Shown in pieces: positions 612 to 57,744 of a DNA stretch of 64,000 nucleotides (within the stretch, counting starts at the first letter, position 1; every line of letters starts with the position of its first letter). This DNA is from Candidatus Micrarchaeota archaeon (GTDB lineage: Archaea > Micrarchaeota > Micrarchaeia > Norongarragalinales > Norongarragalinaceae): contig JABWCK010000001.1 of the NCBI GenBank assembly GCA_013360305.1, positions 17,209 to 81,208 of the forward strand, written 5' to 3'. Below the pieces are notes generated by a model that was not told where the DNA came from, did no database searches, and worked only from the letters and a program-made list of their open reading frames with translations. A program made the position numbers and the translations under genes.

Positions 612-3515
612 ATGAAAAAATTCGCAATAATTGCACTAGTCTTACTGTTAACGCCATTAATCGCCACTGACGCAGATGACGATTTTTGTGATACAACAGT
701 ACATAATGCATTAAGTGGGGAAGAATTTTTTTATGATCAACATATAGACTCTCCCGGAGATGTGGACTGGTTTCACGGATACCAGCCAATGACTTTTCAA
801 GTGCGGATAAATATGATTCCTCCACACAATAAAGACTACGATATCGAAATTTATTCATCAAACTGTAACAACTTGGTAGCAACGTGTTCTAGCGGAACAG
901 GAGCTACTGAAAATTGTTTTGCATTTGTTTCTGGAGACTATTATGCAAAAGTAGTTGGAAAAAACAACGACTACGAGCCGAACGCTTCATATTTTATAAC
1001 ATCGGGAAGCGGCTTTGGAAGTTGTTCAATGAGTCCAACAGATGGAACTCCAGCCAAAGCGTTTTTTTATCGTAATGAAAACTTAAACTCAGTAAATTTC
1101 AAGTTCAAAAACACTAATACTATAACGGTTGCAGCTTACCTTAACCACCAATTATATCGGCCATCGCCTAACAACGGGTTTTTGCAAGAACAATTAATAT
1201 TTCAAGAATACCAAATATCGCCAGGACAAACCTTTTTCAGTAATTCACAATTTGTTCCAGGCGGAAACGGTTGGCCCGATATTGGAACTTATACCCATAA
1301 AGCAATAATGCTAACGTATTGTCCATCAACTGGCTTTAATGGAATAGTCACTCCATTATCTTTTTCAGACCCAATCGTAAGTTGCACTCAAAATGGAGGC
1401 GAATGCAGTTTCCCAGGAACAAGCACTCTAAATTGTTGCAGTACTTACTGCAATACTCAATTCCAATGCGATAACTTCCCCACCCCAACGCCTACACCCA
1501 CACCTACGGCTACTCCGACTCCAACACCGACAGGAACGCCTACTCCTACTGCAACGCCTACGCCTTCTGGTACTCCTACGCCTACACCAAATCCTGCTAG
1601 TCGGCCGGTTATTTTCTTAGAAGACGCTGCGGATAATATTAATATATTCAAACAACCCGGAGATTATTTGAATATCAACATAGCGTCACCAGAAAGCCAG
1701 CCTATTACGATATCTTATGATGATTCCCGGCTTCAACTAATTTCAGGCGTTTGCAACAAAGGAACTGCGTTATTAGTGTCTGGAAATAATTACTGCAAGT
1801 TTTTGATTGATTACTCTGCGCCGAATAATGCTTACCAATTCAGTGCTTCGGGTGGTTTTGGAACAGTAAACAGTCCCTTCGTTCAAGTAACAAGTAATCC
1901 AGCGGGATTAATGGTTACTAACAAGCAAAAGTTAACCGAGAGGTATAATGACGCTGCGGGAGCTAAGAGTGTTTTGGAACTAGCCTTCAGTAAAGCTCAA
2001 ACAAGGAAGACTATTGTTTACGACTTGAATGACTACTTGGAAAACCATCCCTTCAATTCTATTTATTCTTATAATGAAGACCCGTTGAATCCAAGTATTC
2101 CAGACAACAACGCTTACGCTAATAGCGTTTCTAGTTTTGTTAAACAAAAATGCGGAAAATGCACTAGCATAGACATTATCGGCGACGACTACGTCGTGCC
2201 TCACTATAGAATTGACTATGTTTCTTTAGCTAATTCGTTTAACTTGTTTGAAACACTGCAAGGACCTCAAACAAAATACATTTATTCCGACACTCCGCTT
2301 ATTCCCAAGTCTGAAAAGCCATTCAGCGAACTAGATGACTTGTTTACTTTCGAACAAATACAATTTGTTGTTCCTGACTCGATGAGTTCAGACATGCAGT
2401 CTAACTTGACTGCATTAAAGAACACTATTAGAGCAAAATATCCTTTCTCGACTATTGTTGCAGACTTGAAATCAAGTCAAGTAACTTGTGAAACGACTCA
2501 ATTAACCGGAAAAACACTCGTCTTGATCGGAGATCGTTCAAATAATAACGCCATCAAGTGCGTTCCTTGGTTCGGCAACATTCAAGACTCGGTTTCAATA
2601 GAAAGAAGCGTTTGGGGAAGTACAAGCAACTTACTTGCAAGAAAGAATTACGCCATAGTATTGTCTACTAACACTCCAGACATAGTAGCATCGTTCAGAG
2701 TAATCATTCAAGAAGATATGTTTTCCAACACAAACGAATCAACAATTACGTTCATAGAAACCACGCTAGAAGCTTGTGAATTGGTCGGGATAGTACCGCC
2801 TTTCGATATTGCAGGAGATTTTTGTGGTTTCGCTAATGATTGTGGACATTTTGGGTCTACACTAGTTCAAAGACATTCTTTAGACCAAGAAAGAGGAGCT
2901 TACTGTGGCATGAGCGTCTTGTTCATAGCATTACCAGGAATTCCTGGGGGCCCAATTAAAAAACTCGCTAAAGAGAGTAAAGATTTTGCTAGAGGATTGT
3001 TAAAACTAGACATAAAAGCAACAAAACAACTTGAAAAAATATTAAAAGCAGTAAACAATCCAAAATTTGCCTATCAAAAAGTAATGGAAGATATTGGAAC
3101 GCTAAAGGCTACACCTAACTTCCATTTGTTTTTAGAGAAACTAATTAAAGAAACAGCTAGCCAACCATCAAATTTAGGAAAATTAACCGAACTAAGACAT
3201 GGCGCAAATAGGAAAAAAGCAGGGAGTACAATATTAGGCATAACACAGGATCTACAAGGATCAGGGGGAATAAAACAAGAAATAGACTTAATACACGACT
3301 TTAATGGAGAAAGATATTTAGACGAAGTAAAAAGCTCTAACTTTTTACAACTAGATACGAGATTAAAAGACGAACTCAAAAGATATGATGAATTAAGAAA
3401 ACAAGGACTCGGAGATAAAGTAAGATTAGTAACAGCAGGTACAGTATCAGAGGATGTTAAAAACTATATTAGAAACGAAAACTTGGTCATAGAAATAATA
3501 GAAAACGGAATATAA
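612..3515 (+). CDS. Large secreted/cell-surface protein with N-terminal signal peptide and a Pro-Thr-rich linker
   Basis: N-terminus MKKFAIIALVLLLTPLIATDA (signal-peptide-like); Cys-rich N-terminal module; PTPTPTPTPTATPTPTPTGTPTPTATP linker (nt ~1480-1600); 967 aa; many NxS/T sequons. Confidence 0.55.
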   Translation: MKKFAIIALVLLLTPLIATDADDDFCDTTVHNALSGEEFFYDQHIDSPGDVDWFHGYQPMTFQVRINMIPPHNKDYDIEIYSSNCNNLVATCSSGTGATENCFAFVSGDYYAKVVGKNNDYEPNASYFITSGSGFGSCSMSPTDGTPAKAFFYRNENLNSVNFKFKNTNTITVAAYLNHQLYRPSPNNGFLQEQLIFQEYQISPGQTFFSNSQFVPGGNGWPDIGTYTHKAIMLTYCPSTGFNGIVTPLSFSDPIVSCTQNGGECSFPGTSTLNCCSTYCNTQFQCDNFPTPTPTPTPTATPTPTPTGTPTPTATPTPSGTPTPTPNPASRPVIFLEDAADNINIFKQPGDYLNINIASPESQPITISYDDSRLQLISGVCNKGTALLVSGNNYCKFLIDYSAPNNAYQFSASGGFGTVNSPFVQVTSNPAGLMVTNKQKLTERYNDAAGAKSVLELAFSKAQTRKTIVYDLNDYLENHPFNSIYSYNEDPLNPSIPDNNAYANSVSSFVKQKCGKCTSIDIIGDDYVVPHYRIDYVSLANSFNLFETLQGPQTKYIYSDTPLIPKSEKPFSELDDLFTFEQIQFVVPDSMSSDMQSNLTALKNTIRAKYPFSTIVADLKSSQVTCETTQLTGKTLVLIGDRSNNNAIKCVPWFGNIQDSVSIERSVWGSTSNLLARKNYAIVLSTNTPDIVASFRVIIQEDMFSNTNESTITFIETTLEACELVGIVPPFDIAGDFCGFANDCGHFGSTLVQRHSLDQERGAYCGMSVLFIALPGIPGGPIKKLAKESKDFARGLLKLDIKATKQLEKILKAVNNPKFAYQKVMEDIGTLKATPNFHLFLEKLIKETASQPSNLGKLTELRHGANRKKAGSTILGITQDLQGSGGIKQEIDLIHDFNGERYLDEVKSSNFLQLDTRLKDELKRYDELRKQGLGDKVRLVTAGTVSEDVKNYIRNENLVIEIIENGI

Positions 3516-4109: not shown

Positions 4110-7100
4110 ATGAATAAACACTCGCGTCTTGCACTGTTTGCTGTCGCATTGCTTAGCTCGAGTTTTGTCTTAGCGGCGTCTTCGCAGTATGAGTCGGCTG
4201 CGGTTTCTAGGATTGTTGGCGACAGCATTAGTGAGTTAAAACAGCAATTAAGCCAAGGGGACAAGGTTTTCCAGCACGGTACTTACTATACAGTCGAATA
4301 CCCGAGTCTTGGTTGTTTGATTACTAATAACGAGCCGGGCAACAAGGTTTGTCAGAATAAGGCGTTGTTCGAACAAAGCTTTCCAGGCAGTTTTTCTTAT
4401 GGCGATGGTAGTTTTAGTAGTTGGAGTTGGAATGAGTTAAAGAACGAGTTTGATGATTGGGCTAACAACGAGTTATTTTTATTAGAATCAAACGGGGTTT
4501 TAACTAGCAACGGAGTGGTTTTGGTTAACAGGGCAGGACAACAATTAACACCTAATGATGTAATAGTGAAAAATGCTTTTGCTAATAGAAAACCATTATT
4601 TGTTTCTGATGCGGAGTATGGGGGATTGTACTTGCCTAATACTTTAGCAGGAGACAAGTCGTTTATTGGCGCGTTGGGCCAGGACTCTGTTAGCATCGCT
4701 ACCACATCAGTAAAGAATCGAGAGTTTACGCTGGCTTTAATGTGTTATTTGACTAGGGACAAAAACGTTGGTGAAGCATTCAGGGAAGCTAGGAATAATT
4801 ATTACTGGGGTTCTGGAAAACCCAGCGGCTTGGCGTTAATGTCATACTTCTTGTATGGCACTACTAGCGTCAACTATTCTATGCCCGCCCAAATACTGGA
4901 AAGCGATTGGAAGAAACAATGCAGTACTTACTTTAATTCCACGGGCTTCTCAATAGTGACGGGCAGCGATGTTTATGGCGATGTGAGGGGAACAAAGGCA
5001 GAAATATTGTTTGATTCACCGGAACCTTTAGTTCAAGAAATTAGTTTAGACTTCAATAATTACCAAATTATTGATTTCAATAATTATTCATTGTTAACAG
5101 TTAACGGAACCGCATTAAGAAGCGAGTTTTTAGAATTGCCGTTACCGGTCAAGACGATTATTTCAAAGTTTCCAGAAAAAACAATCATAGTAAACATTAC
5201 AGTAACTTCCAAAACCAATCCAATCGATTTAGATTTGAATATTCCTTCATGGAACGGAACGCAATTAATAGATAGGCTTTGTTCTTCAAACGCTACTCAA
5301 GCAGGAATAAACTTTACTGGCGCAGTCATTGAAGACGATTCGTCCACGATAGTAGACGTAAACCCGGTGGAAGTAGTTAATTGTGAAGAAGGACGATTCA
5401 AGTTGTATAGAAGTTTAGTGTATAGGATTGAGTACTTGCCTTATTCGCCGGTTTTAATAAAAACACTAGACTACGCCAATCCAGTCTTGCCTAGCACTCA
5501 AGTTAATTTGACTGCGCAATTGGAACTAGTTGGTTTCTTGAGTAATTCTACAGGAGAATACGAACCAGACGAAAACACTGTCGCGCTGTACCACTTCAAC
5601 GAAGAAGGTACTGAGGAAATAGTAGATTCATCTGGAAACGGTTTTAATGGAATAGGTCAAAACTTGCTTTCTATAGAAGGTGTTTATGATAATGGCGTTT
5701 CATTTAGTGAACCAAATTCTTATGCTAACTTTACTCAAAACGAGTTGGGTTTTGAAACGAACTTCACAGTCGAAGCACGCATAAAAATAGGAAACATTCC
5801 TGAATCGTACGAAATGTTTATTTCAAGAGAAGGATGGGGTGGTAATTACTACTTAGGTATAACCCCAGAAGGAAAAGCATACACTCAAATAAACATCGAC
5901 CAAACAGGGTACGCATTAACTAGCGACAGGATTATTGCGGATGGAGAATGGCATCACGTTGCATTGACGTATGACGGAGTTGTTTTCAAGCAATGGATTG
6001 ATGGAGTTGAAGAAAAAAGCACTGAACTAACGGGCGTCGCATACTCGGATCCGAGACAAACGACTTGGTTTGGAGGAAAGCAAAGCGCGGATATTTACAA
6101 ATTCCATGGAGAATTAGATGAAGCAAGGTTCAGTAATACGGCAAGAACAGAATTTAACGCTAACAGTATTAGTGGCAGACTAGTTTTGAAGAATGGAAAC
6201 GAAATCGTTGCTCAAAAACAATACAACGGCGAAACTAGCCAAGTGTTGGAATTTGACTCAGATGATGAAGAAAAAATCACTAGCTATAAGTTGGAGTTCG
6301 TTGAAAAAAACGAAGCCAAAGCAACTAAGAGTTTTGATTTGGAAACATTGTTGTTGAAAACTTGGGTAGAAATTCCTGAACTAGTTGAAAACGAGAGGAC
6401 TACTACAACTTTGAAACTGGACAACAAGCTCGACCATTCGATTAATGCTAATATTACTTACTTTTTATACAACAAGACTAGCTACGTGGAAGAAAGAACA
6501 GTACAAAAAACCTTGATTCCAGGAGTTAATTCTGACGAACAAGAATTCACTGGATTAAAGCGAAGCAATATTGCTTACTCTCTTACGGCAGTAATTTACT
6601 ACGAAGGAAGGAACAAAACGGTTTCTGGAGTTATTACGACTAACCACGCTCCAGAATTAAGCGAAATACAAGACATTACGGTAAACGAGACTCAGGTCGT
6701 TTTAATCAATCCCCAAGCAACCGACTTGGAAGAAGACCCGATAACTTTTGAAATAAGCTCACCGGTTGGAAATGATGGAGTTTGGAATACTACCTACAAT
6801 GATTCCGGAACTTACTTCGTTAGAGTAAATGCTAGCGATGGATTATTGAAAGACTCTAGGCTAGTAAAATTAACGATACTAAACAAAAACCGCCCTCCAA
6901 TTCTTCAACTTATCGGCAGCAAGAACGTAAACGAGGAACAACTGCTTCAAATACAATTAAACGCGTCAGACGCGGACGGGGAAGAAATAACGTACTCGAC
7001 TAGCGCAAGCGAAGTATTACCTTCAAATTATTCCTTTAATTCGACTACGGGATTATTCAAGTGGACGCCTGCACAAGGAGAAGCTGGAACGTATTTTGTT

Positions 7101-8507
7101 TCATTCAACGCTTCGGATTTAGAAGACCAAGATTTTGAAGTAGTAAAAATAACCGTGAACTCAACTCAAAACCACGCGCCAATACTATCAAGCATAGGAA
7201 ACAAAACAGTAAACGAAAACCAAACCCTAACGATTCAATTGAATGCTTCCGACTCTGACAACGACGAACTAGTTTTTGGAACTAACGCGTTTACAAAATT
7301 ACCAAGCGCGTTCTCATTCAACACTAGTACGGGAAAACTAGTTTGGACGCCGACTTTTGAAGACGCAGGAATATACAACGTGTTGTTTAACGTCACCGAC
7401 GGATCGTTAACAGATAGTGAAACAATAAACATTACGGTAAAAAATGTTAATCGGGCACCAGCATTAACCGACCCCGGAAACAAACAAATAGAAGAAAACA
7501 ACAAGCTAACCATCCAACTAACAGCTACAGACGCTGACGGAGACGCAGTAAACTATTCATCAAACGCAAACACGGCACTACCAAGCACTTACGCGCTTAA
7601 TTCCACTACCGGCTTGTTTGAATGGACGCCCAGACTAATTGATGCAGGAACTTACAGCGTTACCTTTGGAGCTAGCGATGGACAAGCAACCACGCTAAAA
7701 ACCATTAGTATAACAGTCAACAACTCGCTAGTTCCCGGTCCAGTAAGCCCAGACTATAAAGGCAAACCCACCAACCCAAGCGTTAACGGCAAACTAGACT
7801 CTTTTGGAGCGTTGTACTTTGTTTGGGAAAGAATTTCAAACGCTAAAAACTATTCAGTATCAGTAAAATACAACGGGCCTTACGCTAACTCTTTCGACTA
7901 TCCTAACGTTACTTACACCAACCAATCTGCTTCAGGAAACATTTCCCTACCAATTCCTGCCACACAAATGGACAAGCAAGCAGACGGATTTTACGAGTGG
8001 AGAATAGGCGCGTGCATTGGCGCGAGTCCAACAAACTGCGCCTGGCACGAATACTCTGACACTTGGTTTAGCTTTAATAAAACAATGATTCCAGAAACAC
8101 TAGGCCCGCAATCACAAACACTAACCACCAATACCAAGCTAGAATGGAATGCTTCAAGACACGACGCTGCAGTAAACGGCTTAGAACTAGGAGGAAAGCC
8201 AGACTACTTAATAATCAAACTGCAAGGCTTAACTGGAAGTCAAAATACTTGTTTGAGCGAACCGCTTCCAGCTAATTGTTACTTAGTATTTCCTTACAAG
8301 ACAAGCAGTGAAGGTATCCCCGGACAAGCAGGATATCAAGGAAACTACTACCAATTCAACCAAACATACTACAACCAAATAGCCCAAGGAACTTACGACT
8401 GGAGTATTTCACTATTCGAAGGCGAATTATCAACAGATCCTTACTACAAGCAATTAAGACTACAAAAAACCAGGTTCGGACAAACCAAAACAATAACTAA
8501 AAACTGA
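4110..8507 (+). CDS. Giant (1465 aa) extracellular adhesin-like protein: signal peptide, LamG/ConA-like lectin domain, four tandem cadherin-like domains, Cys-containing C-terminal module
   Basis: MNKHSRLALFAVALLSSSFVLAASSQ signal peptide; LamG-like segment (GEWHHVALTYDGVVFKQWIDGVE...FHGELDEARFSNTAR); four ~90-aa repeats of the form N[HR]APxL..IGNKTVNENQ.L.IQLNASD.D.D...F....LPS.FSFN.STG...WTP....AG.Y.V.F.A.DG; dense N-glycosylation sequons. Confidence 0.7.
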   Translation: MNKHSRLALFAVALLSSSFVLAASSQYESAAVSRIVGDSISELKQQLSQGDKVFQHGTYYTVEYPSLGCLITNNEPGNKVCQNKALFEQSFPGSFSYGDGSFSSWSWNELKNEFDDWANNELFLLESNGVLTSNGVVLVNRAGQQLTPNDVIVKNAFANRKPLFVSDAEYGGLYLPNTLAGDKSFIGALGQDSVSIATTSVKNREFTLALMCYLTRDKNVGEAFREARNNYYWGSGKPSGLALMSYFLYGTTSVNYSMPAQILESDWKKQCSTYFNSTGFSIVTGSDVYGDVRGTKAEILFDSPEPLVQEISLDFNNYQIIDFNNYSLLTVNGTALRSEFLELPLPVKTIISKFPEKTIIVNITVTSKTNPIDLDLNIPSWNGTQLIDRLCSSNATQAGINFTGAVIEDDSSTIVDVNPVEVVNCEEGRFKLYRSLVYRIEYLPYSPVLIKTLDYANPVLPSTQVNLTAQLELVGFLSNSTGEYEPDENTVALYHFNEEGTEEIVDSSGNGFNGIGQNLLSIEGVYDNGVSFSEPNSYANFTQNELGFETNFTVEARIKIGNIPESYEMFISREGWGGNYYLGITPEGKAYTQINIDQTGYALTSDRIIADGEWHHVALTYDGVVFKQWIDGVEEKSTELTGVAYSDPRQTTWFGGKQSADIYKFHGELDEARFSNTARTEFNANSISGRLVLKNGNEIVAQKQYNGETSQVLEFDSDDEEKITSYKLEFVEKNEAKATKSFDLETLLLKTWVEIPELVENERTTTTLKLDNKLDHSINANITYFLYNKTSYVEERTVQKTLIPGVNSDEQEFTGLKRSNIAYSLTAVIYYEGRNKTVSGVITTNHAPELSEIQDITVNETQVVLINPQATDLEEDPITFEISSPVGNDGVWNTTYNDSGTYFVRVNASDGLLKDSRLVKLTILNKNRPPILQLIGSKNVNEEQLLQIQLNASDADGEEITYSTSASEVLPSNYSFNSTTGLFKWTPAQGEAGTYFVSFNASDLEDQDFEVVKITVNSTQNHAPILSSIGNKTVNENQTLTIQLNASDSDNDELVFGTNAFTKLPSAFSFNTSTGKLVWTPTFEDAGIYNVLFNVTDGSLTDSETINITVKNVNRAPALTDPGNKQIEENNKLTIQLTATDADGDAVNYSSNANTALPSTYALNSTTGLFEWTPRLIDAGTYSVTFGASDGQATTLKTISITVNNSLVPGPVSPDYKGKPTNPSVNGKLDSFGALYFVWERISNAKNYSVSVKYNGPYANSFDYPNVTYTNQSASGNISLPIPATQMDKQADGFYEWRIGACIGASPTNCAWHEYSDTWFSFNKTMIPETLGPQSQTLTTNTKLEWNASRHDAAVNGLELGGKPDYLIIKLQGLTGSQNTCLSEPLPANCYLVFPYKTSSEGIPGQAGYQGNYYQFNQTYYNQIAQGTYDWSISLFEGELSTDPYYKQLRLQKTRFGQTKTITKN
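6640..7735 (+). repeat. Four tandem in-frame cadherin-like (CADG-type) domain repeats inside the giant adhesin gene
   Basis: Repeat units begin at ~6646 (NHAPELS), ~6889 (NRPPILQ), ~7171 (NHAPILS), ~7450 (NRAPALT); period ~240-280 nt; conserved LNASD / FN.TTG.F.WTP / DG motifs. Confidence 0.55.
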
Positions 8508-13540: not shown

Positions 13541-14764
13541 TTATTTCACCAGCGTCTTGTGGGATAGTTCTAAAGCGTCAACGAACGATTGCACTTCACG
13601 CTTGTTGTTATAAACATAAAATGAAGCGCGGCAAGTAGACGTCAACCCCAAAGCATTCAATAATGGCTGCGTGCAATGGTGGCCGGAGCGGATGGCGATA
13701 TTCTTTGAATCGAGGATTGAAGCAACATCGTGTGCGTGGACTCCTTGAACGTTGAATGATAGTATTCCTAGTTTTTTGCTTGGGGCTGGACCATAAACAT
13801 CAACGTAGTTGGGTAGTATTTTGTGTGCGTAACTGGTTAAATCGCGTTCGTGGGCTAGTAACTCGTCAAAACCAATTCTTTGCAAGTAACGAACCGCTTC
13901 AGCTAAGCCTATTGCTCCAGAAATGTTAGGCGTACCAGCCTCGTATTTATACGGCAAATCATTCCAAGTGGTTTCTTGAATAGTTACTTCTCGAATCATG
14001 TCGCCACCAGTCAAGAATGGAGGTAATTCTTGAAGTAATTCTTTTTTTCCATATAAGACGCCGATTCCGGTTGGTCCTAGCATTTTGTGCCCTGACAAAG
14101 CAAGAAAATCACAATCCAATTTCTTAACATCAATAGGCAAGTGAGGCGCGCTTTGAGCAGCGTCTATTACGGTTAGAGCCCCAGCGTCTTTTGCTTGTTC
14201 GATTAATTGCTTGGCGGGAGTAATTACGCCAGTAGCGTTGGATGCGTGAGTGAATGCGAAGACAGTCGCGTTTTTTAGTTTGTTAAAGTCTTCAACATCT
14301 AGTTCGGCGGATTCGCTTAGTGACAAGTACTCGATTTTAGCTTTCGTTTTCTGGCTTAACAATTGCCAAGGCACGAAATTAGAGTGGTGATTCATTAACG
14401 TAGAAACAATCTTGTCATTTTTTGAAACAGGCAAGATGTTAGCAACTAAGTTTATTGATTCAGTCGCGTTTCTCGTAAAGATTATTTCTTCAGGCGAAGC
14501 ATTCAAGAATTCAGCAATAGATTCTCTAGCGTTTTCATACAATTCCGTTGCTTCTTGAGATAATTGATAGACTCCTCTGTGGACGTTAGAGTAATGGTTT
14601 TCGTAAAAATCCCTTTCAGCATCTAGCACTGAAGACGGTTTTTGAGTGGTTGCTGCGTTGTCTAGGTAGATTAGGTTTGGATTGTTTTTGAATATGGGAA
14701 AGTCTTTTTTCGTGTCGATCATTGCATTCTTACCTTCAATAGTTTTTCGCACTCGCTTCGCCAA
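13541..14764 (-). CDS. sufS: Cysteine desulfurase SufS (class V aminotransferase fold)
   Basis: LSGHKMLGPTGIGVLYG (PLP-Lys region), HHSN, C-terminal RSGHHCTQPL (active-site Cys loop); 407 aa. Confidence 0.85.
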   Translation of the reverse strand: MAKRVRKTIEGKNAMIDTKKDFPIFKNNPNLIYLDNAATTQKPSSVLDAERDFYENHYSNVHRGVYQLSQEATELYENARESIAEFLNASPEEIIFTRNATESINLVANILPVSKNDKIVSTLMNHHSNFVPWQLLSQKTKAKIEYLSLSESAELDVEDFNKLKNATVFAFTHASNATGVITPAKQLIEQAKDAGALTVIDAAQSAPHLPIDVKKLDCDFLALSGHKMLGPTGIGVLYGKKELLQELPPFLTGGDMIREVTIQETTWNDLPYKYEAGTPNISGAIGLAEAVRYLQRIGFDELLAHERDLTSYAHKILPNYVDVYGPAPSKKLGILSFNVQGVHAHDVASILDSKNIAIRSGHHCTQPLLNALGLTSTCRASFYVYNNKREVQSFVDALELSHKTLVK

Positions 14765-15867
14765 GCAGGGTTTTGGCTTTTGTCTATTATTTCTTGAGCA
14801 AAGCCTTCAATTATTAACAATTCAGCGTCGCGTTTTTTTAATCCTCGGGATTGCAAGTAGAATACGCTGTCTTTGTCTATGTGGCTGACGGACGCGCCGT
14901 GGCGAGATTTTACGTCATTAGTTTTAATCTCTAAAGCAGGCAAGGAGTTGGCTTTGGCTTTGTTGCTTAACAATAACGCTCGACCCATTAAGTGGGAGAA
15001 AGTGTTTTTTGCAGGGTTCTCGATTAAAATCATTCCTCTATGCACAGAGTTGGCTTCGTCGTCTAGTATTCCTTTAGCTAGCAAGTTGCCGGTAGTGTCG
15101 GGTACTGCGTGGCGAATGTTTGTTGACAAATCGCTTTCTTGCTTGTTTTTTCCAAAAAACAACAAGTAAGTATCGCTGTTAGCGTTTCTTCCTTCGAGAG
15201 AGGAATTGAATTCTTGAATTGTTGAAGAAGAACCAAAAGAAGCAGCAATCCATTGAAAACTAGCTTTTTCGCTTAAGACGCTTTTCTTTAAGGAATAATT
15301 TTGGCTAGTTATTGAAGCGTTTTCTAGAAAATTGTAGTCTGTCTTCGAGTTTTCTCCAATGAATACTTCAGAAAAACTAGTTGACGCGTTAGTTGAAGAA
15401 AAGTCTTCAAAGTAATCGAGCTTAGCGTTTTTTCCAGTAATTACTATAGAGTGAGCTAGGACGCTTTCGCCGGTAAAGCTTGTTTTCACGCTAGCCTCAA
15501 CATCCTCAGGAACTATTATCAAGCAGCCAGTGTTGAATAAGGCGAAATGCAAGGCAGCGTTTCGAGAAATTTCTGGATTTAATAATTTCTGGAAGTGTTT
15601 TTTTACTAGTGATTCTTCTTGTTGCAAGGCTGTTTTGAAATCTAAAACAATTGCGTTACCGCTTGATTCAAATTTAACGGCCGGAGAAGAATTGTTAGTT
15701 AAGTCGAGTGAAAAATTAGTGTATTTTTTTTGAGTAGGCGAGTCAGCTTCAACGTAATACTCGTTGTCAACCCATTTTTTCAACGCGTTTTTGCGTAGTT
15801 TCTCTAGCCACGAAGGCTCGTTGTTTAAACGGACTAGTTCATCGATTTTTTCTAATTGTTTATTCAA
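14719..15867 (-). CDS. sufD: Fe-S cluster assembly protein SufD
   Basis: Position between sufB and sufS; C-terminal half similar in composition to the SufB C-terminal beta-helix (LIIEGF, KSRHGASVSHIDKDSVFYLQSRGL); 382 aa. Confidence 0.6.
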   Translation of the reverse strand: MNKQLEKIDELVRLNNEPSWLEKLRKNALKKWVDNEYYVEADSPTQKKYTNFSLDLTNNSSPAVKFESSGNAIVLDFKTALQQEESLVKKHFQKLLNPEISRNAALHFALFNTGCLIIVPEDVEASVKTSFTGESVLAHSIVITGKNAKLDYFEDFSSTNASTSFSEVFIGENSKTDYNFLENASITSQNYSLKKSVLSEKASFQWIAASFGSSSTIQEFNSSLEGRNANSDTYLLFFGKNKQESDLSTNIRHAVPDTTGNLLAKGILDDEANSVHRGMILIENPAKNTFSHLMGRALLLSNKAKANSLPALEIKTNDVKSRHGASVSHIDKDSVFYLQSRGLKKRDAELLIIEGFAQEIIDKSQNPAWRSECEKLLKVRMQ

Positions 15868-18494
15868 CCTACTGCACCTAGTTTTTCCATTTCCAAGTGA
15901 ATCAATCGATTCAATTCAACTGAAAACTCGAGAGGAATTTCCTTCATTACGTCATCCAAGAAACCTAACACTATCATTGAGCGAGCGTCTGCTTCATTCA
16001 AGCCGCGGGACATCATGTAAAACAATTGTTCGTCACTAATCTTGCCAACGCTGGCTTCATGAGTAAACGACGCAGTTGGTTCATAAATCTCGTTATGAGG
16101 ATAAGTATCGCTTCGTGAATCCTTGTCTAGAATTAAAGCATCGCATTGGACGTGGCTCTTAGCATTTAACGCCCCGGCATTAATTCTTAACAAACCCCGG
16201 TAAACAGACACTCCACCGCCTGACGAAATGCTTTTAGCAATCACTTTAGACGTAGTGTTTTTGCCAATGTGAAGCACTTTAGCACCGCCGTCCTTCCACG
16301 TATCTGAAGTGCCGAAAGCAATGTTCAAGTGAGACGCGCTCGAATTGTCGCCTTTCAAAATAGTCATTGGATACAACATTGTCAGCTTGCTGCCCAAGCT
16401 TCCGCCTACCCACTCCATTTTAGCATTCTTGTCAACAATAGCGCGTTTAGTGTTCAAATTGTAAACATTCTTGCTCCAGTTTTGGACAGTAGTATAACGC
16501 ATTTTAGCGTTGTCGTGAACGAAAATCTCTACTATAGCAGAATGCAGCGAGTTAGTCGTATACTTTGGCGCCGTGCAATTATGCACTGCAACGCCGCCCG
16601 CGACATAAGATTCGTCTTCATCGACGCTAAAATTGTAAACAGGCAAATCAACTACTTCTTCGAAAGAAATTGTTTTTACAGGAACAAAAGCATACTTTTC
16701 AGTAATATGTGCATATGACTTTGCTAAACTTGCTTGAGAAAGTTTTTGTAGTGCTATTTGTCTTTCTACTGCGAACTCATTAACAGGTTGAGCGTTTACG
16801 ACGTTTGCAAATTTCTGTAGAAATGAGCCGCCGACGTATACCGTGTGCATCACGTGCTTGTTTGCTCTTTCTTGAGAGTTTATTCCTGCAAAAACATCAA
16901 GCCTTAACAACACGTCGCGTAATTGTCTGGCTAAAGTTGAAGAAACCGTGTTCATTCTGAACATTCTTTTTATTCCCCAAGAATATTGTTGGTACATATA
17001 ACTTCCGTCTCCTCGCCAGAATCCTTTAATTAATTCTGCTTGTTTTTCGGGAGACTCGTGAATTACCCATAAAGGTAATTGTTTGGTGTGTGCGTGGTGA
17101 TTAAATTCTGAGTTAAAGAATCTGGCCGCCTTAGTCGAACACAACGTTAAAGAAATTCCGTTGTTTCTAATTTTTCCTTGAATCGGTTCTTTCTCAAAAT
17201 ATTTTAATAAAAGGAATTTGACGTCTTCGAGATATTCTTTTTCTTTAACGTTAAACGTAAAGCTGACGTAGTGTCCGCCGATAGTAGTTCCTTCAGACAA
17301 ATAATATCCTAATAGCCGGAAAAAGTCTTTGTCGGTTCTTAATGCGAGAGTAAACGAATTAAATTTCCCTTTACTCTTTCCAAAATTAACATTAAAAACG
17401 CGCACGTCACTAGACATCACTTCCCGGTCAATAGGCATCGCTAAATAATCTCCTTTTTGAATGTTGTTTACAGGGCTCCAATCAGGATTCCAAGTGGTGT
17501 TCTTGTATTCTGCGCGTTCTTTCTTTACTACTAAAAAGGGGTGTTCTTCGGTTGCTTTAATTTCAGCTTTGCTATCCCCATAATAAGTGACCGAATAAAG
17601 TTTTCCCGAATAAGGCCTAACTTGAGTGTGATAAACAGTTTTGAACCGGTTTTCATGAGTTAATACTTTTTCTCCAACCGTAACTTCTTCAATTGGTTTG
17701 TCACTTGTTTCGGTTTTTACTGGTGTGCCTTTAACAAAACATCCTTCGACGTAATGGCCTTCGCTTCCTTCTTCTGCAACGATTAAAGTATGCTCGAATT
17801 GTCCTTCGTTGGCAGCGTTCATTCTGAAATAAGTTTGAAAAGGCAAGTCAACCTTTACGCCCTTAGGAACGTAAAGAAAACTGCCACCACTCCACACTGC
17901 GCCATGCAATGCAGCGAACTTGTTGTCAGTGTAAGGCACGCACTTCATGAAGTATTTCTTTACTAAGTCAGGGTGTTTTTTTAAAGCAGAATCCATATCC
18001 ATGAATATTACGCCTAAGTCGTCGTAAATTTTCTTGACGTTAGCGTAAACGCTAGTCGACTCGTATTGAGCAACGCTGCCGGCTAAGTATTTTCGCTCTG
18101 CTTCAGGAATACCGAGTTTTTCGAAAGTGTCTTTGATTTCTCCCGGAACATCCTCCCAATTCTTAGCGTTTTCAGCAGCCATTTCCGGAGTAATGTAGTA
18201 ATACATTTCTTGAAAATCAATTCCACTCAAGTCAGCGCCCCAAACCGGCATTGGCCTGCGCAAGAATTCATTGAAAGACTTCAAGCGGTGTTCAAGCATC
18301 CATTCCGGTTCTTGCTTTAATTTAGAAATTAGTTTAACTGTTTCAATAGACAATCCTTTCGGTATTTTTTTGACTTTAGCCGCGTCCTTGAAGTCGTACT
18401 TGTTCAAGTCAATTGAGGGAATGTCTTCTATTCTTTCAACTGATTCAACCAAGAACAACACCCTTAACGTATTCAGCGTAGCCTTTTTCTTCAA
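15864..18494 (-). CDS. sufB: Fe-S cluster assembly protein SufB, interrupted by a 388-aa intein
   Basis: Extein sequence is typical SufB (FQTYFRMNAANEGQFEHTLIVAEEGSEGHYVEG | ... | CTAPKYTTNSLHSAIVEIFVH...GGGVSVYRGLL...FYMMSRGL); extein length ~488 aa after removing the intein. Confidence 0.85.
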   Translation of the reverse strand: MKKKATLNTLRVLFLVESVERIEDIPSIDLNKYDFKDAAKVKKIPKGLSIETVKLISKLKQEPEWMLEHRLKSFNEFLRRPMPVWGADLSGIDFQEMYYYITPEMAAENAKNWEDVPGEIKDTFEKLGIPEAERKYLAGSVAQYESTSVYANVKKIYDDLGVIFMDMDSALKKHPDLVKKYFMKCVPYTDNKFAALHGAVWSGGSFLYVPKGVKVDLPFQTYFRMNAANEGQFEHTLIVAEEGSEGHYVEGCFVKGTPVKTETSDKPIEEVTVGEKVLTHENRFKTVYHTQVRPYSGKLYSVTYYGDSKAEIKATEEHPFLVVKKERAEYKNTTWNPDWSPVNNIQKGDYLAMPIDREVMSSDVRVFNVNFGKSKGKFNSFTLALRTDKDFFRLLGYYLSEGTTIGGHYVSFTFNVKEKEYLEDVKFLLLKYFEKEPIQGKIRNNGISLTLCSTKAARFFNSEFNHHAHTKQLPLWVIHESPEKQAELIKGFWRGDGSYMYQQYSWGIKRMFRMNTVSSTLARQLRDVLLRLDVFAGINSQERANKHVMHTVYVGGSFLQKFANVVNAQPVNEFAVERQIALQKLSQASLAKSYAHITEKYAFVPVKTISFEEVVDLPVYNFSVDEDESYVAGGVAVHNCTAPKYTTNSLHSAIVEIFVHDNAKMRYTTVQNWSKNVYNLNTKRAIVDKNAKMEWVGGSLGSKLTMLYPMTILKGDNSSASHLNIAFGTSDTWKDGGAKVLHIGKNTTSKVIAKSISSGGGVSVYRGLLRINAGALNAKSHVQCDALILDKDSRSDTYPHNEIYEPTASFTHEASVGKISDEQLFYMMSRGLNEADARSMIVLGFLDDVMKEIPLEFSVELNRLIHLEMEKLGAVG
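16578..17741 (-). mobile_element. Intein with LAGLIDADG homing-endonuclease domain inserted in SufB
   Basis: Starts with Cys right after HYVEG (CFVKGTPV...), ends ...VAVHN followed by +1 Cys (CTAPKY); two dodecapeptide motifs LLGYYLSEGTT and LIKGFWRGDGS; boundaries counted codon by codon from the start at 18494. Confidence 0.7.
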
Positions 18495-19248
18495 GTTTTA
18501 AGGCTAGTTCTTTTCCGCCGCTTTCAACGATTTTACCATCAACCATTACGTGAACGAAGTCCGGCTTCAAGTAGTGAAGTATTCTCTGGTAGTGAGTTAT
18601 TACTAACAAGCCTATCCCTTCCTTGTGGGCTTTTTGAACTGCTGAAGCAACGCTCTTCACAGCATCAATATCCAATCCGGAATCAATTTCGTCCAACACC
18701 GCGAATTTGGGTTGTAAAACCATTAATTGAAGTATTTCCGCGCGTTTTTTTTCTCCACCAGAAAAGCCAGCATTCAAGTAACGCGAAGAAAAAGACTCGT
18801 CGAAACTCAAGTCCTTCATTTTTTCCTTTAATAATTTTTGAAAAGCAGCAACGTCTTGCAATGAATTAGTTTTTTTGTGAATTGAATTATAAGAATTTCT
18901 CAAGAAAGTAGAAAACTTGACTCCAGGAACTTCAAACGGGTATTGAAATGCTAAAAACAATCCCTTCCTAGCCCGCTCGTCAGGACTCCATTCCAGAATA
19001 GACTCGCCATCAAGCAAAACGTCGCCCGAAGTAACTTCATAATACGGGTGGCCCATTAAAACGCTAGACAAAGTGCTTTTCCCTGAACCGTTTGGCCCCA
19101 TTATTGAATGAAGTTCGCCCTTCCTTACTTTTAAAGAAACACCTTTCAGTATTTCTTTTCCTTCAATGGATGCGTGCAAGTCTTTAAACTCTAGAATTTC
19201 TTTCAAAAAAACCACCAATATTACGCGTTTCGCTTGGCTTCCCAGCAC
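18445..19248 (-). CDS. sufC: Fe-S cluster assembly ATPase SufC (ABC ATPase)
   Basis: Walker A GPNGSGKST, ABC signature FSGGEKKR, Walker B FAVLDEIDSGLD, H-loop ITHY; 267 aa. Confidence 0.85.
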   Translation of the reverse strand: MLGSQAKRVILVVFLKEILEFKDLHASIEGKEILKGVSLKVRKGELHSIMGPNGSGKSTLSSVLMGHPYYEVTSGDVLLDGESILEWSPDERARKGLFLAFQYPFEVPGVKFSTFLRNSYNSIHKKTNSLQDVAAFQKLLKEKMKDLSFDESFSSRYLNAGFSGGEKKRAEILQLMVLQPKFAVLDEIDSGLDIDAVKSVASAVQKAHKEGIGLLVITHYQRILHYLKPDFVHVMVDGKIVESGGKELALKLEEKGYAEYVKGVVLG

Positions 19249-19514
19249 GAAACTATTTCCTTAGATTGAGAATTCAAGTAGTACTCTACAACTAAAGGAT
19301 CGCCCTTAGCTTCCTTTCTGACTAGTAAACCAGCTGCTTCCAACTCCTTCAACCGCTTAGAAAGCAGTTGAGGCGTTATTTTAGGCAAGCCTCGCTTGAT
19401 TTCATTAAAGTGAGTCTTTCCCTCGTAAATCTCGGTTAAAATCTTTAAAGCCCACTTTTTCTCAAAAACATCCAAGTGAATAACAATAGGGCAAACCCTA
19501 GGAGAACAATGCAT
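19221..19514 (-). CDS. HxlR-family winged-helix transcriptional regulator, first gene of the suf cluster
   Basis: CPIVIHLDVFEKKWALKILTEIYEGKTHFNEIKRGLPKITPQLLSKRLKELEAAGLL fits the HxlR wHTH; 97 aa; overlaps the sufC start. Confidence 0.7.
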   Translation of the reverse strand: MHCSPRVCPIVIHLDVFEKKWALKILTEIYEGKTHFNEIKRGLPKITPQLLSKRLKELEAAGLLVRKEAKGDPLVVEYYLNSQSKEIVSCWEAKRNA

Positions 19515-20507: not shown

Positions 20508-21191
20508 ATGACCGTAGTTCAACCATGCCCGGAAAATATTGAAAAAACACCCGAGTTAGCATATGTAATAGGCACTATGCAGGGGGACGGTTCGTTTTGT
20601 GAGTGTAAAATAAAAGGAAAAAAATATAAGGCAACAGTCTTGACTATCGAAGCCATGGACTTGGAAATGATCGAACAAACGAGAAACTTTTTTGAAAAAA
20701 GTTTCGGGAGAAAAGTTGCTATTTTTAGAAAAACAAAAGGTTCGTATGGGATTCGTTATTTAGTTAAAGGATTACTTTCAGCATTTCAAAAACTAGAACT
20801 AGATTTTACAGATCCACCTAAGCCACCAAAATGGGTTGAAGAAAAAACAGAATTTTTTGGAGCTTACCTCGCAGGAGTAATTGACTCGGATGGAAACGTT
20901 TGCATAAAGAGACCGACGTATCCAATGTGTCAAATAAAAATAACCTCCGGCACCCCACAAATAAAATTGCAAGAAGCAGTGAAAAACAACTTAAAATGCG
21001 GAACAAACATAGATACAGTTACAGATTTCAATAAAACGTGGAAAAAATGGACTACCCGAAGCAATTTACGTTTTGTAATCTCTAAGAAAAACTTGGAAGT
21101 AATCAAAAAATTTGTTTTGCCATACCTAACAATTCCAAGAAAAAGAAACAAAATATCAGAATATATCGAAACAAGATATAAAGCGGGCTAG
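20508..21191 (+). CDS. Free-standing double-motif LAGLIDADG homing-endonuclease-like protein
   Basis: Motif 1 YVIGTMQGDGSF and motif 2 LAGVIDSDGNV spaced ~100 aa apart; 227 aa; 3' end overlaps tRNA-Cys by ~10 nt. Confidence 0.6.
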   Translation: MTVVQPCPENIEKTPELAYVIGTMQGDGSFCECKIKGKKYKATVLTIEAMDLEMIEQTRNFFEKSFGRKVAIFRKTKGSYGIRYLVKGLLSAFQKLELDFTDPPKPPKWVEEKTEFFGAYLAGVIDSDGNVCIKRPTYPMCQIKITSGTPQIKLQEAVKNNLKCGTNIDTVTDFNKTWKKWTTRSNLRFVISKKNLEVIKKFVLPYLTIPRKRNKISEYIETRYKAG

Positions 21192-21252
21192 GAGAGTCGA
21201 ACTCCTATATCTCGATCTGCAGTCGAGCACATGGCCGCTCTGTCAAACCCGC
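21182..21252 (-). tRNA. tRNA-Cys (GCA)
   Basis: Minus-strand read GCGGGTT...CTCGA-CTGCAGA-TCGAG...AGGAG-TTCGACT-CTCCT-AGCCCGC-T: 7-bp acceptor stem, perfect anticodon and T arms, anticodon GCA, U73 discriminator (the Cys identity element); D-stem has one mismatch. Confidence 0.6.
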
Positions 21253-22809: not shown

Positions 22810-22934
22810 CGGGCCCAGGGGGATTTGGACCCCCGACATTTCGATTTCTTTCAAAAATTTAGGAAAGTTTTGATGCAACTTTTCCTAAAAGTTGCTAAGA
22901 GTCGAACGCTCTGGCCAAACTGAGCTATGGGCCC
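22810..22934 (-). tRNA. tRNA-Lys (CTT) with a ~50-nt intron at the canonical 37/38 position
   Basis: Minus strand GGGCCCA-TA-GCTC-AGTTTGGCCA-GAGC-G-TTCGA-CTCTTA[intron ~50 nt]A-TCGAA-ATGTC-GGGGG-TCCAAAT-CCCCC-TGGGCCC-G; all four stems pair; anticodon CTT. Confidence 0.7.
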
Positions 22935-57628: not shown

Positions 57629-57744
57629 GGGTCCGTAGCTCAGCCTGGATAGAGCAATTGCCTTCTAAACTTTTTTGTTAAAAAGTTTAATCAAAAAAGC
57701 ATGAGGAAAGCAAGAGGTCGGGGGTCCGAATCCCCCCGGACCCG
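57629..57744 (+). tRNA. tRNA-Arg (TCT) with a ~41-nt intron at position 37/38
   Basis: GGGTCCG-TA-GCTC-AGCCTGGATA-GAGC-A-ATTGC-CTTCTA[intron]A-GCAAG-AGGTC-GGGGG-TCCGAAT-CCCCC-CGGACCC-G; upstream TTTTTATCTATAT TATA-like box; downstream oligo-T (TTTTATTTTATT). Confidence 0.7.

What the first reader, a model, noticed from the sequence alone, without database searches (positions are those of the whole stretch)
16578..17741. LAGLIDADG intein splitting SufB
SufB is interrupted after ...EGSEGHYVEG by a 388-aa insertion. The insertion starts with Cys, ends with His-Asn and is followed by a +1 Cys. It carries two LAGLIDADG-type dodecapeptides (LLGYYLSEGTT, LIKGFWRGDGS). The extein halves rejoin into a normal-length SufB. 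Inteins in Fe-S assembly genes are known but sporadic. The Cys/Cys splice junctions make this one potentially redox-responsive.
Basis: seen in the sequence. Interest (0 to 1): 0.55.

Follow-up and report, generated by a model that had tools for sequence, protein, structure and literature searches.

The report
Ordinary homing-endonuclease intein in SufB
The iron-sulfur assembly gene sufB of this probable DPANN archaeon is interrupted by a standard self-splicing intein with a homing endonuclease, at the same site as the well-studied Mycobacterium tuberculosis SufB intein, so it is real but ordinary.

Summary
Window 16578..17741 (minus strand) encodes a 388-aa in-frame insertion in an 876-codon sufB ORF. 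It starts with Cys, ends His-Asn and is followed by Cys.

With the insertion removed, the 488-aa extein matches the SufB model TIGR01980 in one stretch. The 120 closest SufB homologues all lack the insertion.

The insertion has intein blocks A, B, F and G and two LAGLIDADG motifs with their acidic residues. Its confident AlphaFold model (pLDDT 92.8) matches solved intein-endonucleases (TliVMA intein, PI-SceI, PI-PkoII, PI-PfuI).

The insertion point, HYVEG|C...VHN|CTAP, is the same as that of the M. tuberculosis SufB (Pps1) intein. The two inteins are homologous end to end (hhalign probability 99.9%).

The +1 Cys aligns with E. coli SufB Cys254, the persulfide acceptor. Relatives of this intein occur in at least 176 species genomes (DPANN archaea, Patescibacteria, Chloroflexota and others), and all 80 best loci inspected have the same N-terminal SufB junction (C-terminal junction also found in 78). 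HEN-less mini versions also occupy the site.

Redox control through a Cys1/Cys+1 disulfide has precedent in M. tuberculosis but is untested here.

Verdict: a new member of a known kind, of low interest.

The parts
15864..18494 (-). sufB precursor ORF of 876 codons plus stop. The start codon is uncertain: TTG at 18494, or GTG/TTG at 18461, 18458 or 18452.
   Evidence: TIGR01980 sufB scores 675.7 bits in two stretches.
17742..18494 (-). N-extein of SufB, up to 251 aa, ending ...EGSEGHYVEG. His is at position -5, as in M. tuberculosis SufB.
   Evidence: The alignment to E. coli SufB 5awf_A is. His-5 in the Mtu protein is reported.
16578..17741 (-). Complete class-1 intein of 388 aa (Cys1 ... His387-Asn388).
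17427..17741 (-). N-terminal splicing (Hint) subdomain, about intein residues 1-105. It holds block A (C1, G5) and block B (T64-E-E-H67, at 17541..17552).
   Evidence: Invariant columns. The region is retained in mini-inteins. The model shows beta strands with pLDDT above 90.
16722..17420 (-). LAGLIDADG homing-endonuclease insert, about intein residues 108-340. This is the part missing from the 147-178-aa mini-inteins at the same site.
   Evidence: Pfam LAGLIDADG_3 at 44.9 bits against a cut-off of 22.5. Alignment A1. Foldseek matches to PI-SceI, PI-PfuI and I-DmoI.
17289..17315 (-). First LAGLIDADG motif, LLGYYLSEG (residues 143-151). The catalytic-position residue is Glu150.
   Evidence: Glu is kept in 75 of 78 family members.
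17004..17033 (-). Second LAGLIDADG motif, LIKGFWRGDG (residues 237-246). The catalytic-position residue is Asp245.
   Evidence: Asp is kept in 77 of 78 family members.
16578..16721 (-). C-terminal splicing subdomain, residues 341-388. It holds block F (PVYNFSVDEDESYVA, from residue 367) and block G (GVAVHN).
   Evidence: TIGR01443 intein_Cterm at 21-24.7 bits against a cut-off of 15.6. Invariant V368, N370, E377, Y379 and H387.
16575..16577 (-). Codon TGC for the +1 Cys. It is the splice nucleophile and the equivalent of E. coli SufB Cys254, the persulfide acceptor.
   Evidence: Sequence. The alignment to 5awf_A puts it on C254. The role of C254 is from PMC5571166.
15864..16577 (-). C-extein of SufB, 237 aa plus stop, beginning CTAPKYTT. 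It contains the equivalent of E. coli Cys405.
18445..19248 (-). sufC, immediately upstream in the same operon.
   Evidence: TIGR01978 at 343.8 bits against a cut-off of 212.8.
14719..15867 (-). sufD, immediately downstream, overlapping the sufB stop.
   Evidence: TIGR01981 at 221 bits against a cut-off of 222.
13541..14764 (-). sufS cysteine desulfurase, the last gene of the operon.
   Evidence: TIGR01979 at 531.3 bits against a cut-off of 475.1.
19221..19514 (-). HxlR-type winged-helix regulator at the head of the suf gene string.
   Evidence: Pfam HxlR at 61.4 bits.

Best explanation
This is a canonical class-1 intein that carries a double-motif LAGLIDADG homing endonuclease. It is inserted in sufB between Gly and the conserved Cys of the HYVEG-CTAP motif.

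Shown here: the gene is translated as one 876-aa precursor reading frame. The intein has Cys1, the block-B Thr64/His67 pair, a C-terminal His387-Asn388 and a +1 Cys. Its predicted fold is Hint plus LAGLIDADG. Its site and lineage are those of the M. tuberculosis SufB (Pps1) intein.

Inferred from the established class-1 mechanism:
- Cys1 performs an N-S acyl shift.
- The +1 Cys attacks the resulting thioester to form a branched intermediate.
- Asn388 cyclises and releases the intein.
- An S-N shift then ligates the exteins into a 488-aa SufB.

Until splicing occurs, the persulfide-acceptor Cys (E. coli C254 equivalent) is tied up at the splice junction. By analogy with M. tuberculosis, the precursor then cannot assemble with SufC and SufD.

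Also inferred: the excised protein acts as a site-specific endonuclease. It would cut intein-free sufB alleles around ...CATTACGTCGAAGGA|TGCACGGCGCCA..., and repair would copy the intein in. This would explain its patchy spread.

Oxidation could reversibly block splicing through a Cys1-Cys+1 disulfide. That is possible but speculative for this organism.
For: Boundaries and an uninterrupted reading frame.

The extein is a complete SufB in one stretch once the insertion is removed. It aligns colinearly with E. coli SufB, with the +1 Cys on C254.

The 120 nearest SufB homologues (60-74% identity) are 421-489 aa and have no Hint or LAGLIDADG domain.

Profile hits: LAGLIDADG_3 is above its cut-off and intein_Cterm is above its cut-off. 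Intein_splicing scores 35.3 against 35.8, and Hint_2 scores 27.7 against 28.4.

Among 78 inteins at this site, T64, H67, V368, N370, E377 and Y379 are kept in 78 of 78. The LAGLIDADG acidic residues are kept in 75 and 77 of 78.

The AlphaFold model has pLDDT 92.8 and pTM 0.91. Foldseek matches the TliVMA intein at E 3.7e-20, then PI-SceI, PI-PkoII and PI-PfuI, then I-DmoI for the endonuclease core.

The Mtu SufB junctions are VHYVEG|CLPAGE...GFAVHN|CTAPIY. BLASTP against that intein gives E 4e-22 end to end, and hhalign gives probability 99.9% and E 1.5e-32. The Mtu intein is reported to splice in vitro and has the same VYN block-F motif.

Mobility signature: intein identity and extein identity are uncorrelated across 68 loci (r = 0.09). 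Intein GC3 is 0.327 against 0.46 in the exteins. Mini-inteins lacking the HEN occupy the same site.
Against: Nothing here shows splicing or DNA cleavage experimentally.

Two curated splicing-domain profiles fall just short of their cut-offs: Pfam Intein_splicing by 0.5 bit, and TIGR01445 intein_Nterm at 16.5 against 24.5. A sequence-only search of the PDB gave only marginal hits.

The residue at the usual block-F Asp position is Asn. However, this holds in all 78 family members and in the splicing-competent Mtu intein.

His-38, reported to assist N-cleavage in Mtu SufB, is Lys here.
Confidence: 0.93

Rival explanations
1. The intein has been co-opted as a post-translational redox or stress switch for Fe-S cluster assembly. 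Under oxidising conditions a Cys1-Cys+1 disulfide, or another thiol modification, would stall splicing. That would withhold SufB, whose persulfide-acceptor Cys is the +1 residue. This would be a function added to the element, or replacing its selfish role.
For: Both junction nucleophiles are Cys. The +1 Cys is the equivalent of E. coli C254. The homologous Mtu SufB intein at the same site is reported to be inhibited by oxidative and nitrosative stress through a C1-C+1 disulfide, and its precursor cannot bind SufC or SufD. HEN-less mini-inteins persist at this site in many genomes, so the intein can be retained without homing.
Against: No data exist for this organism. Cys1/Cys+1 is a common intein configuration, and redox sensitivity is not universal even among class-1 Cys/Cys inteins. 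This copy keeps an apparently intact endonuclease, which fits a mobile selfish element. Retention of mini-inteins is also expected simply because imprecise loss is lethal.
Confidence: 0.2
2. The intein still splices, but its homing endonuclease is inactive. It would then be a fixed, decaying element on the way to becoming a mini-intein.
For: Many relatives at this site have already lost the HEN domain (147-178-aa versions). No intein-free target allele can be examined in this genome.
Against: Both LAGLIDADG acidic residues (E150, D245) are intact here, and they are kept in 75 and 77 of 78 family members. There are 69 positions conserved at 90% or more, many of them in the HEN region: K220, P223, W225, R262, R275, R280. 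The HEN region is modelled with pLDDT mostly above 90.
Confidence: 0.2
3. The 388-aa segment is a lineage-specific SufB domain or a non-splicing Hint-like insertion, and the protein functions at full length.
For: Some curated intein profiles are marginally below their cut-offs.
Against: The segment is absent from the 120 nearest SufB homologues. It interrupts the invariant EG-C(T/S)AP motif at the essential persulfide-acceptor Cys. All splice-junction residues are present and invariant. It is homologous to an intein shown to splice. The fold search returns inteins only.
Confidence: 0.01

Closest known systems
Mycobacterium tuberculosis SufB (Pps1, Rv1461) intein
   Same: Same host protein and the same insertion point: VHYVEG|C...VHN|CTAP, with His at -5. 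It also has Cys1 and Cys+1, a penultimate His and terminal Asn, an embedded double-motif LAGLIDADG endonuclease, the block-F motif VYN...(D/P)(E/D)SY, and similar extein lengths (252/235 aa against 251/237 aa). Homology runs end to end: BLASTP E 4e-22, hhalign probability 99.9%.
   Different: Identity is only 24%. The Mtu intein is 359 aa and this one is 388 aa. The host here is an archaeon rather than an actinobacterium. His-38 of the Mtu N-extein is Lys here. Splicing, SufBCD assembly block and redox inhibition are reported for the Mtu protein and untested here.
Uncharacterised SufB inteins of DPANN archaea, Patescibacteria and Chloroflexota in public MAGs (for example Candidatus Iainarchaeum JAGVWE010000004, locus L001)
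   Same: Same site, 367-394 aa, 41-60% identical to this one, with all catalytic positions shared.
   Different: The closest is only 59% identical, so this copy is a distinct variant. Some of these sufB genes carry one or two further inteins at other sites, which are empty here.
Solved intein-homing endonucleases: TliVMA and PhoVMA inteins (7qsu, 7qst), PI-SceI (1vde), PI-PkoII (2cw7), PI-PfuI (1dq3)
   Same: Same two-part architecture: a Hint splicing domain split by a LAGLIDADG endonuclease. Foldseek E values are 1e-14 to 4e-20, probability 1.00, TM about 0.6-0.7.
   Different: The host proteins differ (V-ATPase, DNA polymerase, RNR). Sequence identity is 11-17%. PI-SceI and PI-PfuI carry additional DNA-recognition or stirrup regions and are longer (about 430-540 aa).

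Membership tests
Class-1 intein (Hint-fold protein-splicing element) | Nucleophile (Cys, Ser or Thr) as first residue, within block A | tested here: met
   Cys1 in CFVKGT. C1 and G5 are invariant in the family.
Class-1 intein (Hint-fold protein-splicing element) | Block B Thr-x-x-His | tested here: met
   T64-E-E-H67, kept in 78 of 78 related inteins.
Class-1 intein (Hint-fold protein-splicing element) | Blocks F and G ending in His-Asn, followed by a +1 Cys, Ser or Thr | tested here: met
   ...PVYNFSVDEDESYVAGGVAVHN|C. TIGR01443 intein_Cterm is above its cut-off.
Class-1 intein (Hint-fold protein-splicing element) | In-frame insertion at a conserved site of a host protein, absent from homologues, with exteins colinear after removal | tested here: met
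   TIGR01980 matches in a single stretch after removal. The extein is colinear with E. coli SufB. The 120 nearest homologues are intein-free.
Class-1 intein (Hint-fold protein-splicing element) | Curated splicing-domain profiles reach their thresholds | tested here: inconclusive
   Intein_splicing scores 35.3 against 35.8, Hint_2 27.7 against 28.4, and TIGR01445 16.5 against 24.5. Only TIGR01443 passes.
Class-1 intein (Hint-fold protein-splicing element) | Hint fold | tested here: met
   Model pLDDT is 92.8. The top 16 Foldseek matches are all solved inteins, at E down to 3.7e-20.
Class-1 intein (Hint-fold protein-splicing element) | Autocatalytic splicing that yields ligated exteins | not testable with these tools
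   This needs expression of the precursor. It is reported for the homologous Mtu intein.
LAGLIDADG homing endonuclease (monomeric, two-motif) | Two LAGLIDADG motifs, each with an acidic residue at the metal-binding position | tested here: met
   LLGYYLSE150G and LIKGFWRGD245G. These residues are kept in 75 and 77 of 78 relatives.
LAGLIDADG homing endonuclease (monomeric, two-motif) | Family profile above threshold, and the family fold | tested here: met
   PF14528 scores 44.9 against 22.5. Foldseek matches I-DmoI and I-Tsp061I at E 1e-8 to 1e-6 over the HEN core.
LAGLIDADG homing endonuclease (monomeric, two-motif) | Site-specific cleavage of the intein-free allele | not testable with these tools
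   The predicted target is AGCGAAGGCCATTACGTCGAAGGA|TGCACGGCGCCAAAGTATACGACT, reconstructed.
SufB/Pps1 intein allele of the M. tuberculosis type | Same insertion point in SufB | tested here: met
   Mtu reads VHYVEG|C...VHN|CTAPIY. The window reads GHYVEG|C...VHN|CTAPKY.
SufB/Pps1 intein allele of the M. tuberculosis type | Sequence homology of the intein itself | tested here: met
   BLASTP E 4e-22 over residues 1-388 against 1-354. hhalign probability 99.9%, E 1.5e-32.
SufB (TIGR01980) scaffold protein | Equivalog profile above threshold, with the key Cys residues present (E. coli C254 and C405) | tested here: met
   699.9 bits against a cut-off of 346.4. Both Cys residues align. The gene lies in a sufC-sufB-sufD-sufS string.
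Redox-conditional intein (Mtu SufB, Pab PolII type) | Cys at both position 1 and position +1 | tested here: met
   The only other Cys in the intein is C201.
Redox-conditional intein (Mtu SufB, Pab PolII type) | Reversible inhibition of splicing by oxidation through a C1-C+1 disulfide | not testable with these tools
   Reported for the Mtu protein. It is not universal among Cys/Cys inteins.

The most novel reading that the evidence does not exclude
This intein lineage may not be merely selfish. It may be preferentially associated with the reactive or cluster-ligating cysteines of Fe-S biogenesis and Fe-S proteins, where it could act as a thiol- or redox-gated switch.

The sites seen are:
- the SufB C254 equivalent in this window;
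- two different ligand-Cys sites of NifU/IscU-type scaffolds;
- the Cys of the conserved GC-x-VNGPGE motif of IspG;
- the third Cys of a radical-SAM CX3CX2C motif.

In this streamlined archaeon, SufBCD assembly would then be controlled post-translationally by intein splicing.
Probability: 0.1. Interest if true: 0.55.

Novelty: new member of a known kind. Interest (0 to 1): 0.2.

Why it matters
The finding adds an archaeal (probably DPANN) example to a well-characterised intein allele.

The M. tuberculosis-type SufB intein site turns out to be occupied in at least 176 species genomes of mostly uncultivated lineages. Full-length versions were confirmed in the 80 best loci, and mini versions appear among the protein hits.

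This could be useful as comparative material for work on conditional splicing of SufB, or as a source of new splicing domains and meganuclease scaffolds. It does not change what is known about inteins or about Fe-S assembly.

Tried and rejected
- A sequence-only search of the PDB with the intein gave only marginal hits: a BIL domain (2lwy, E 0.007) and PI-PkoII (E 0.08). The structure route was needed instead.
- The key paper on redox control (Topilina 2015, PMC4547236) is not in the held library. Its findings are cited second-hand from reviews.
- Looking up the window's own contig through an exact protein match found nothing, so the organism is inferred only from relatives and from intron-bearing tRNAs.
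- The promoter and terminator scan of the operon was uninformative. Counts were near shuffled expectation, and sigma-70 rules do not apply to archaea.
- I tested whether the free-standing LAGLIDADG-like ORF at 20508..21191 is a copy of the intein's endonuclease. There is no significant similarity (E 0.16).
- I considered and rejected three readings: a native SufB domain, a bacterial intein-like (BIL) domain, and class-2 or class-3 inteins. Against these: Cys1 and a +1 nucleophile are present, the insertion sits inside a conserved host motif, and the sequence is homologous to a class-1 splicer.
- A literature search for natural inteins in IscU or in DPANN archaea found nothing relevant.
Full report
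**Observation.** The window has an 876-codon ORF on the minus strand at 15864..18494. Reading the DNA directly, the codon TGT at 17739-17741 follows ...GAA GGA (Glu-Gly). The codons CAT AAT at 16578-16583 are followed by TGC at 16575-16577. The 1164 bases at 16578..17741 translate to 388 aa, CFVKGTPV...GGVAVHN. This segment is flanked by ...EGSEGHYVEG and CTAPKYTT.... Only the strand was left unstated.

**The host is SufB and the segment is an insertion.**
- The precursor matches TIGR01980 (SufB) in two stretches.
- With the 388 aa removed, the 488-aa product matches in one stretch, residues 31-477 to model positions 3-448 of 448. The score rises from 675.7 to 699.9 bits.
- The spliced sequence aligns colinearly with E. 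coli SufB (5awf_A, E 3.6e-105) with no gap at the junction.
- The 120 most similar SufB proteins in a 5.8-billion-protein collection are 60-74% identical. They come from Micrarchaeota, Diapherotrites, Thermoplasmata and Peregrinibacteria.
- All 120 are 421-489 aa and none carries a Hint or LAGLIDADG domain.
- The gene sits in an HxlR-sufC-sufB-sufD-sufS string.

**The segment is an intein with a homing endonuclease.**
- Pfam LAGLIDADG_3 (44.9 bits, cut-off 22.5) and TIGR01443 intein_Cterm pass their cut-offs.
- Intein_splicing (35.3 against 35.8), Hint_2 (27.7 against 28.4) and TIGR01445 (16.5 against 24.5) fall short, so the sequence is divergent.
- A family alignment shows the invariant residues C1, G5, T64 and H67 (block B), V368-Y-N370, D376-E-S-Y379, G383, H387 and N388.
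- In 78 inteins extracted from genomes, T64, H67, V368, N370, E377 and Y379 are each kept in 78 of 78.
- The LAGLIDADG acidic residues E150 and D245 are kept in 75 and 77 of 78. The extraction pattern itself required C1, a C-terminal Asn preceded by His, Ser or Ala, and a +1 Cys, so conservation of those positions (and in part of H387) is not independent evidence.
- An AlphaFold model built on a 35-sequence alignment is confident: pLDDT 92.8 and pTM 0.91.
- Its top 16 Foldseek matches in the PDB are all solved intein-endonucleases: the TliVMA intein at E 3.7e-20, the PhoVMA intein, PI-SceI, PI-PkoII and PI-PfuI.
- These are followed by free-standing LAGLIDADG enzymes such as I-DmoI.

**Comparison with what is known.**
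- Table S2 of Panda et al. 2022 (PMC8891592) gives the M. tuberculosis SufB precursor in parts. The N-extein ends ...ADEGSYVHYVEG, the intein runs CLPAGE...GFAVHN, and the C-extein starts CTAPIYKS.
- That is the same peptide bond as here, including His at -5.
- The two inteins align end to end at 24% identity (BLASTP E 4e-22).
- A profile of the present family matches the Mtu intein at probability 99.9%, E 1.5e-32. The shared motifs are TAEHP, LAGYYLAEG, NGDG, AVPIKK and PVYN..V...DSY.
- The Mtu precursor has a 252-aa N-extein, a 359-aa intein and a 235-aa C-extein, and it splices in vitro.
- Its unspliced form is reported not to bind SufC or SufD. Its splicing is reported to be inhibited by oxidative and nitrosative stress through a Cys1-Cys+1 disulfide.
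It is neither new nor tested for this sequence. One search also notes that redox sensitivity is not universal among class-1 Cys/Cys inteins.

**What the site means.** The +1 Cys aligns with E. coli SufB Cys254. [quoted passage not shown] The equivalent of Cys405 is also present. The intein thus sits directly on a functionally essential residue, as inteins typically do, and mature SufB cannot exist without splicing.

**Distribution and mobility.**
- A scan of one genome per species (GTDB) with the intein alignment found 176 loci encoding relatives. The best match is 59% identical, so this organism or a close relative is not among them.
- The top 80 are from Iainarchaeum, Aenigmatarchaeota, Micrarchaeota, Woesearchaeota, Nanoarchaeota, Patescibacteria, Chloroflexota/Anaerolineae, Planctomycetales and Omnitrophota.
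- All 80 show the same N-terminal SufB junction and 78 also the C-terminal one (not found in L018 and L026; frame-shifted in L042). In 77 an uninterrupted intein could be extracted, of 367-394 aa.
- Protein hits also include 147-178-aa mini-inteins at this site that have lost only the endonuclease part.
- Intein identity to the window (41-60%) does not track extein identity (50-67%); r = 0.09 over 68 loci.
- The closest exteins have no intein.
- Intein GC3 is 0.327, against 0.46 in the exteins and 0.38-0.40 in neighbouring suf genes.
- Together these points fit repeated horizontal homing rather than vertical descent.

**Organism.** Two tRNA genes are long enough to contain introns; Rfam found them and ARAGORN missed them. 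Together with the affiliations of the closest exteins and inteins, this points to an archaeon, probably DPANN. This is an inference.

**Mechanism.**
- Shown: the architecture, the catalytic residues, the site and the homology to a proven splicer.
- Inferred: the four-step class-1 splicing pathway (N-S shift at Cys1, trans-thioesterification by Cys+1, Asn388 cyclisation, S-N shift).
- Inferred: endonuclease-driven homing into intein-free sufB.
- Inferred: inability of the precursor to function.
- Speculative: redox gating.

**Verdict.** This is a genuine, intact intein, correctly read by the first stage. It is a new, divergent member of a known and experimentally characterised allele that is widespread in public genomes. 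Interest is low. The only mildly unusual lead lies outside the finding. The nearest non-SufB relatives of this intein also sit immediately before conserved cysteines, mostly Fe-S ligand Cys, in IscU/NifU-type scaffolds (two sites), IspG and a radical-SAM enzyme. I found no literature on natural inteins in IscU.

Noticed in passing
Proteins P0021, P0023, P0029, P0033-P0035, P0038 (sequences): The closest non-SufB relatives of this intein are 28-30% identical over its whole length. They interrupt NifU_N/IscU-type Fe-S scaffold proteins at two different sites, each directly before a conserved ligand Cys: GEVGNPV|C...HN|CGD and FRTLG|C...VHN|CAAAIATSS. A full-text search found no paper describing natural inteins in IscU.
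   Followed up: partly
Proteins P0039, P0050, P0044, P0036: Further members of the clade also sit immediately before conserved cysteines. The sites are IspG (VMG|C...KN|CEVNGPGE), a radical-SAM enzyme before the third Cys of CX3CX2C (CDFRCGF|C...SN|CHNP), class-II RNR (LSA|C...HN|CF) and a methyltransferase. Whether Fe-S cysteines are over-represented was not tested statistically.
   Followed up: no
Loci L006, L021, L030, L039, L045, L049, L050, L054, L067, L070, L079: Some sufB genes with this intein carry one or two additional inteins at other sites: GN(L/I)G|C...VHN|S(K/R)xTMKYP in the C-extein and AQY(D/E)|C...VHN|SE in the N-extein. L039 has three inteins. Both of these sites are empty in the window (EWVGGSLG|SKLTMLYP and AGSVAQYE|STSVYANV).
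   Followed up: partly
Proteins P0016-P0018, P0022, P0024-P0027, P0030, P0032: Mini-inteins of 147-178 aa occupy the same SufB site. They keep the N- and C-terminal splicing regions (up to 58% identity to the window) but lack the whole LAGLIDADG region. This gives a natural series of endonuclease loss.
   Followed up: partly
window 20508..21191 (+): A free-standing 227-aa ORF has two LAGLIDADG-like motifs (AYVIGTMQGDGS and GAYLAGVIDSDGN). It has a borderline Pfam hit to the PI-PfuI endonuclease subdomain (24.7 bits against 24.4) and no NCBIfam hit. It is not significantly similar to the intein's endonuclease. Its 3' end overlaps tRNA-Cys(GCA) at 21182..21252 on the other strand.
   Followed up: partly
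window 22810..22934 (-) and 57629..57744 (+): Two tRNA matches from Rfam span 125 and 116 nt, and ARAGORN did not report them. Their length implies introns, as is common in archaeal tRNA genes.
   Followed up: no
window 612..3515 (+) and 4110..8507 (+): A 967-aa ORF has no Pfam match at all. It lies next to a 1465-aa ORF with LamG, Ig-like and cadherin-like domains. These are probably large surface proteins.
   Followed up: no
window 16578..17741 compared with 15864..16577 and 17742..18494: The intein's third-position GC is 0.327. The two extein halves are at 0.462 and 0.466, and sufC, sufD and sufS are at 0.38-0.40. So sufB itself is the compositional outlier on the high side and the intein is the outlier on the low side.
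   Followed up: no
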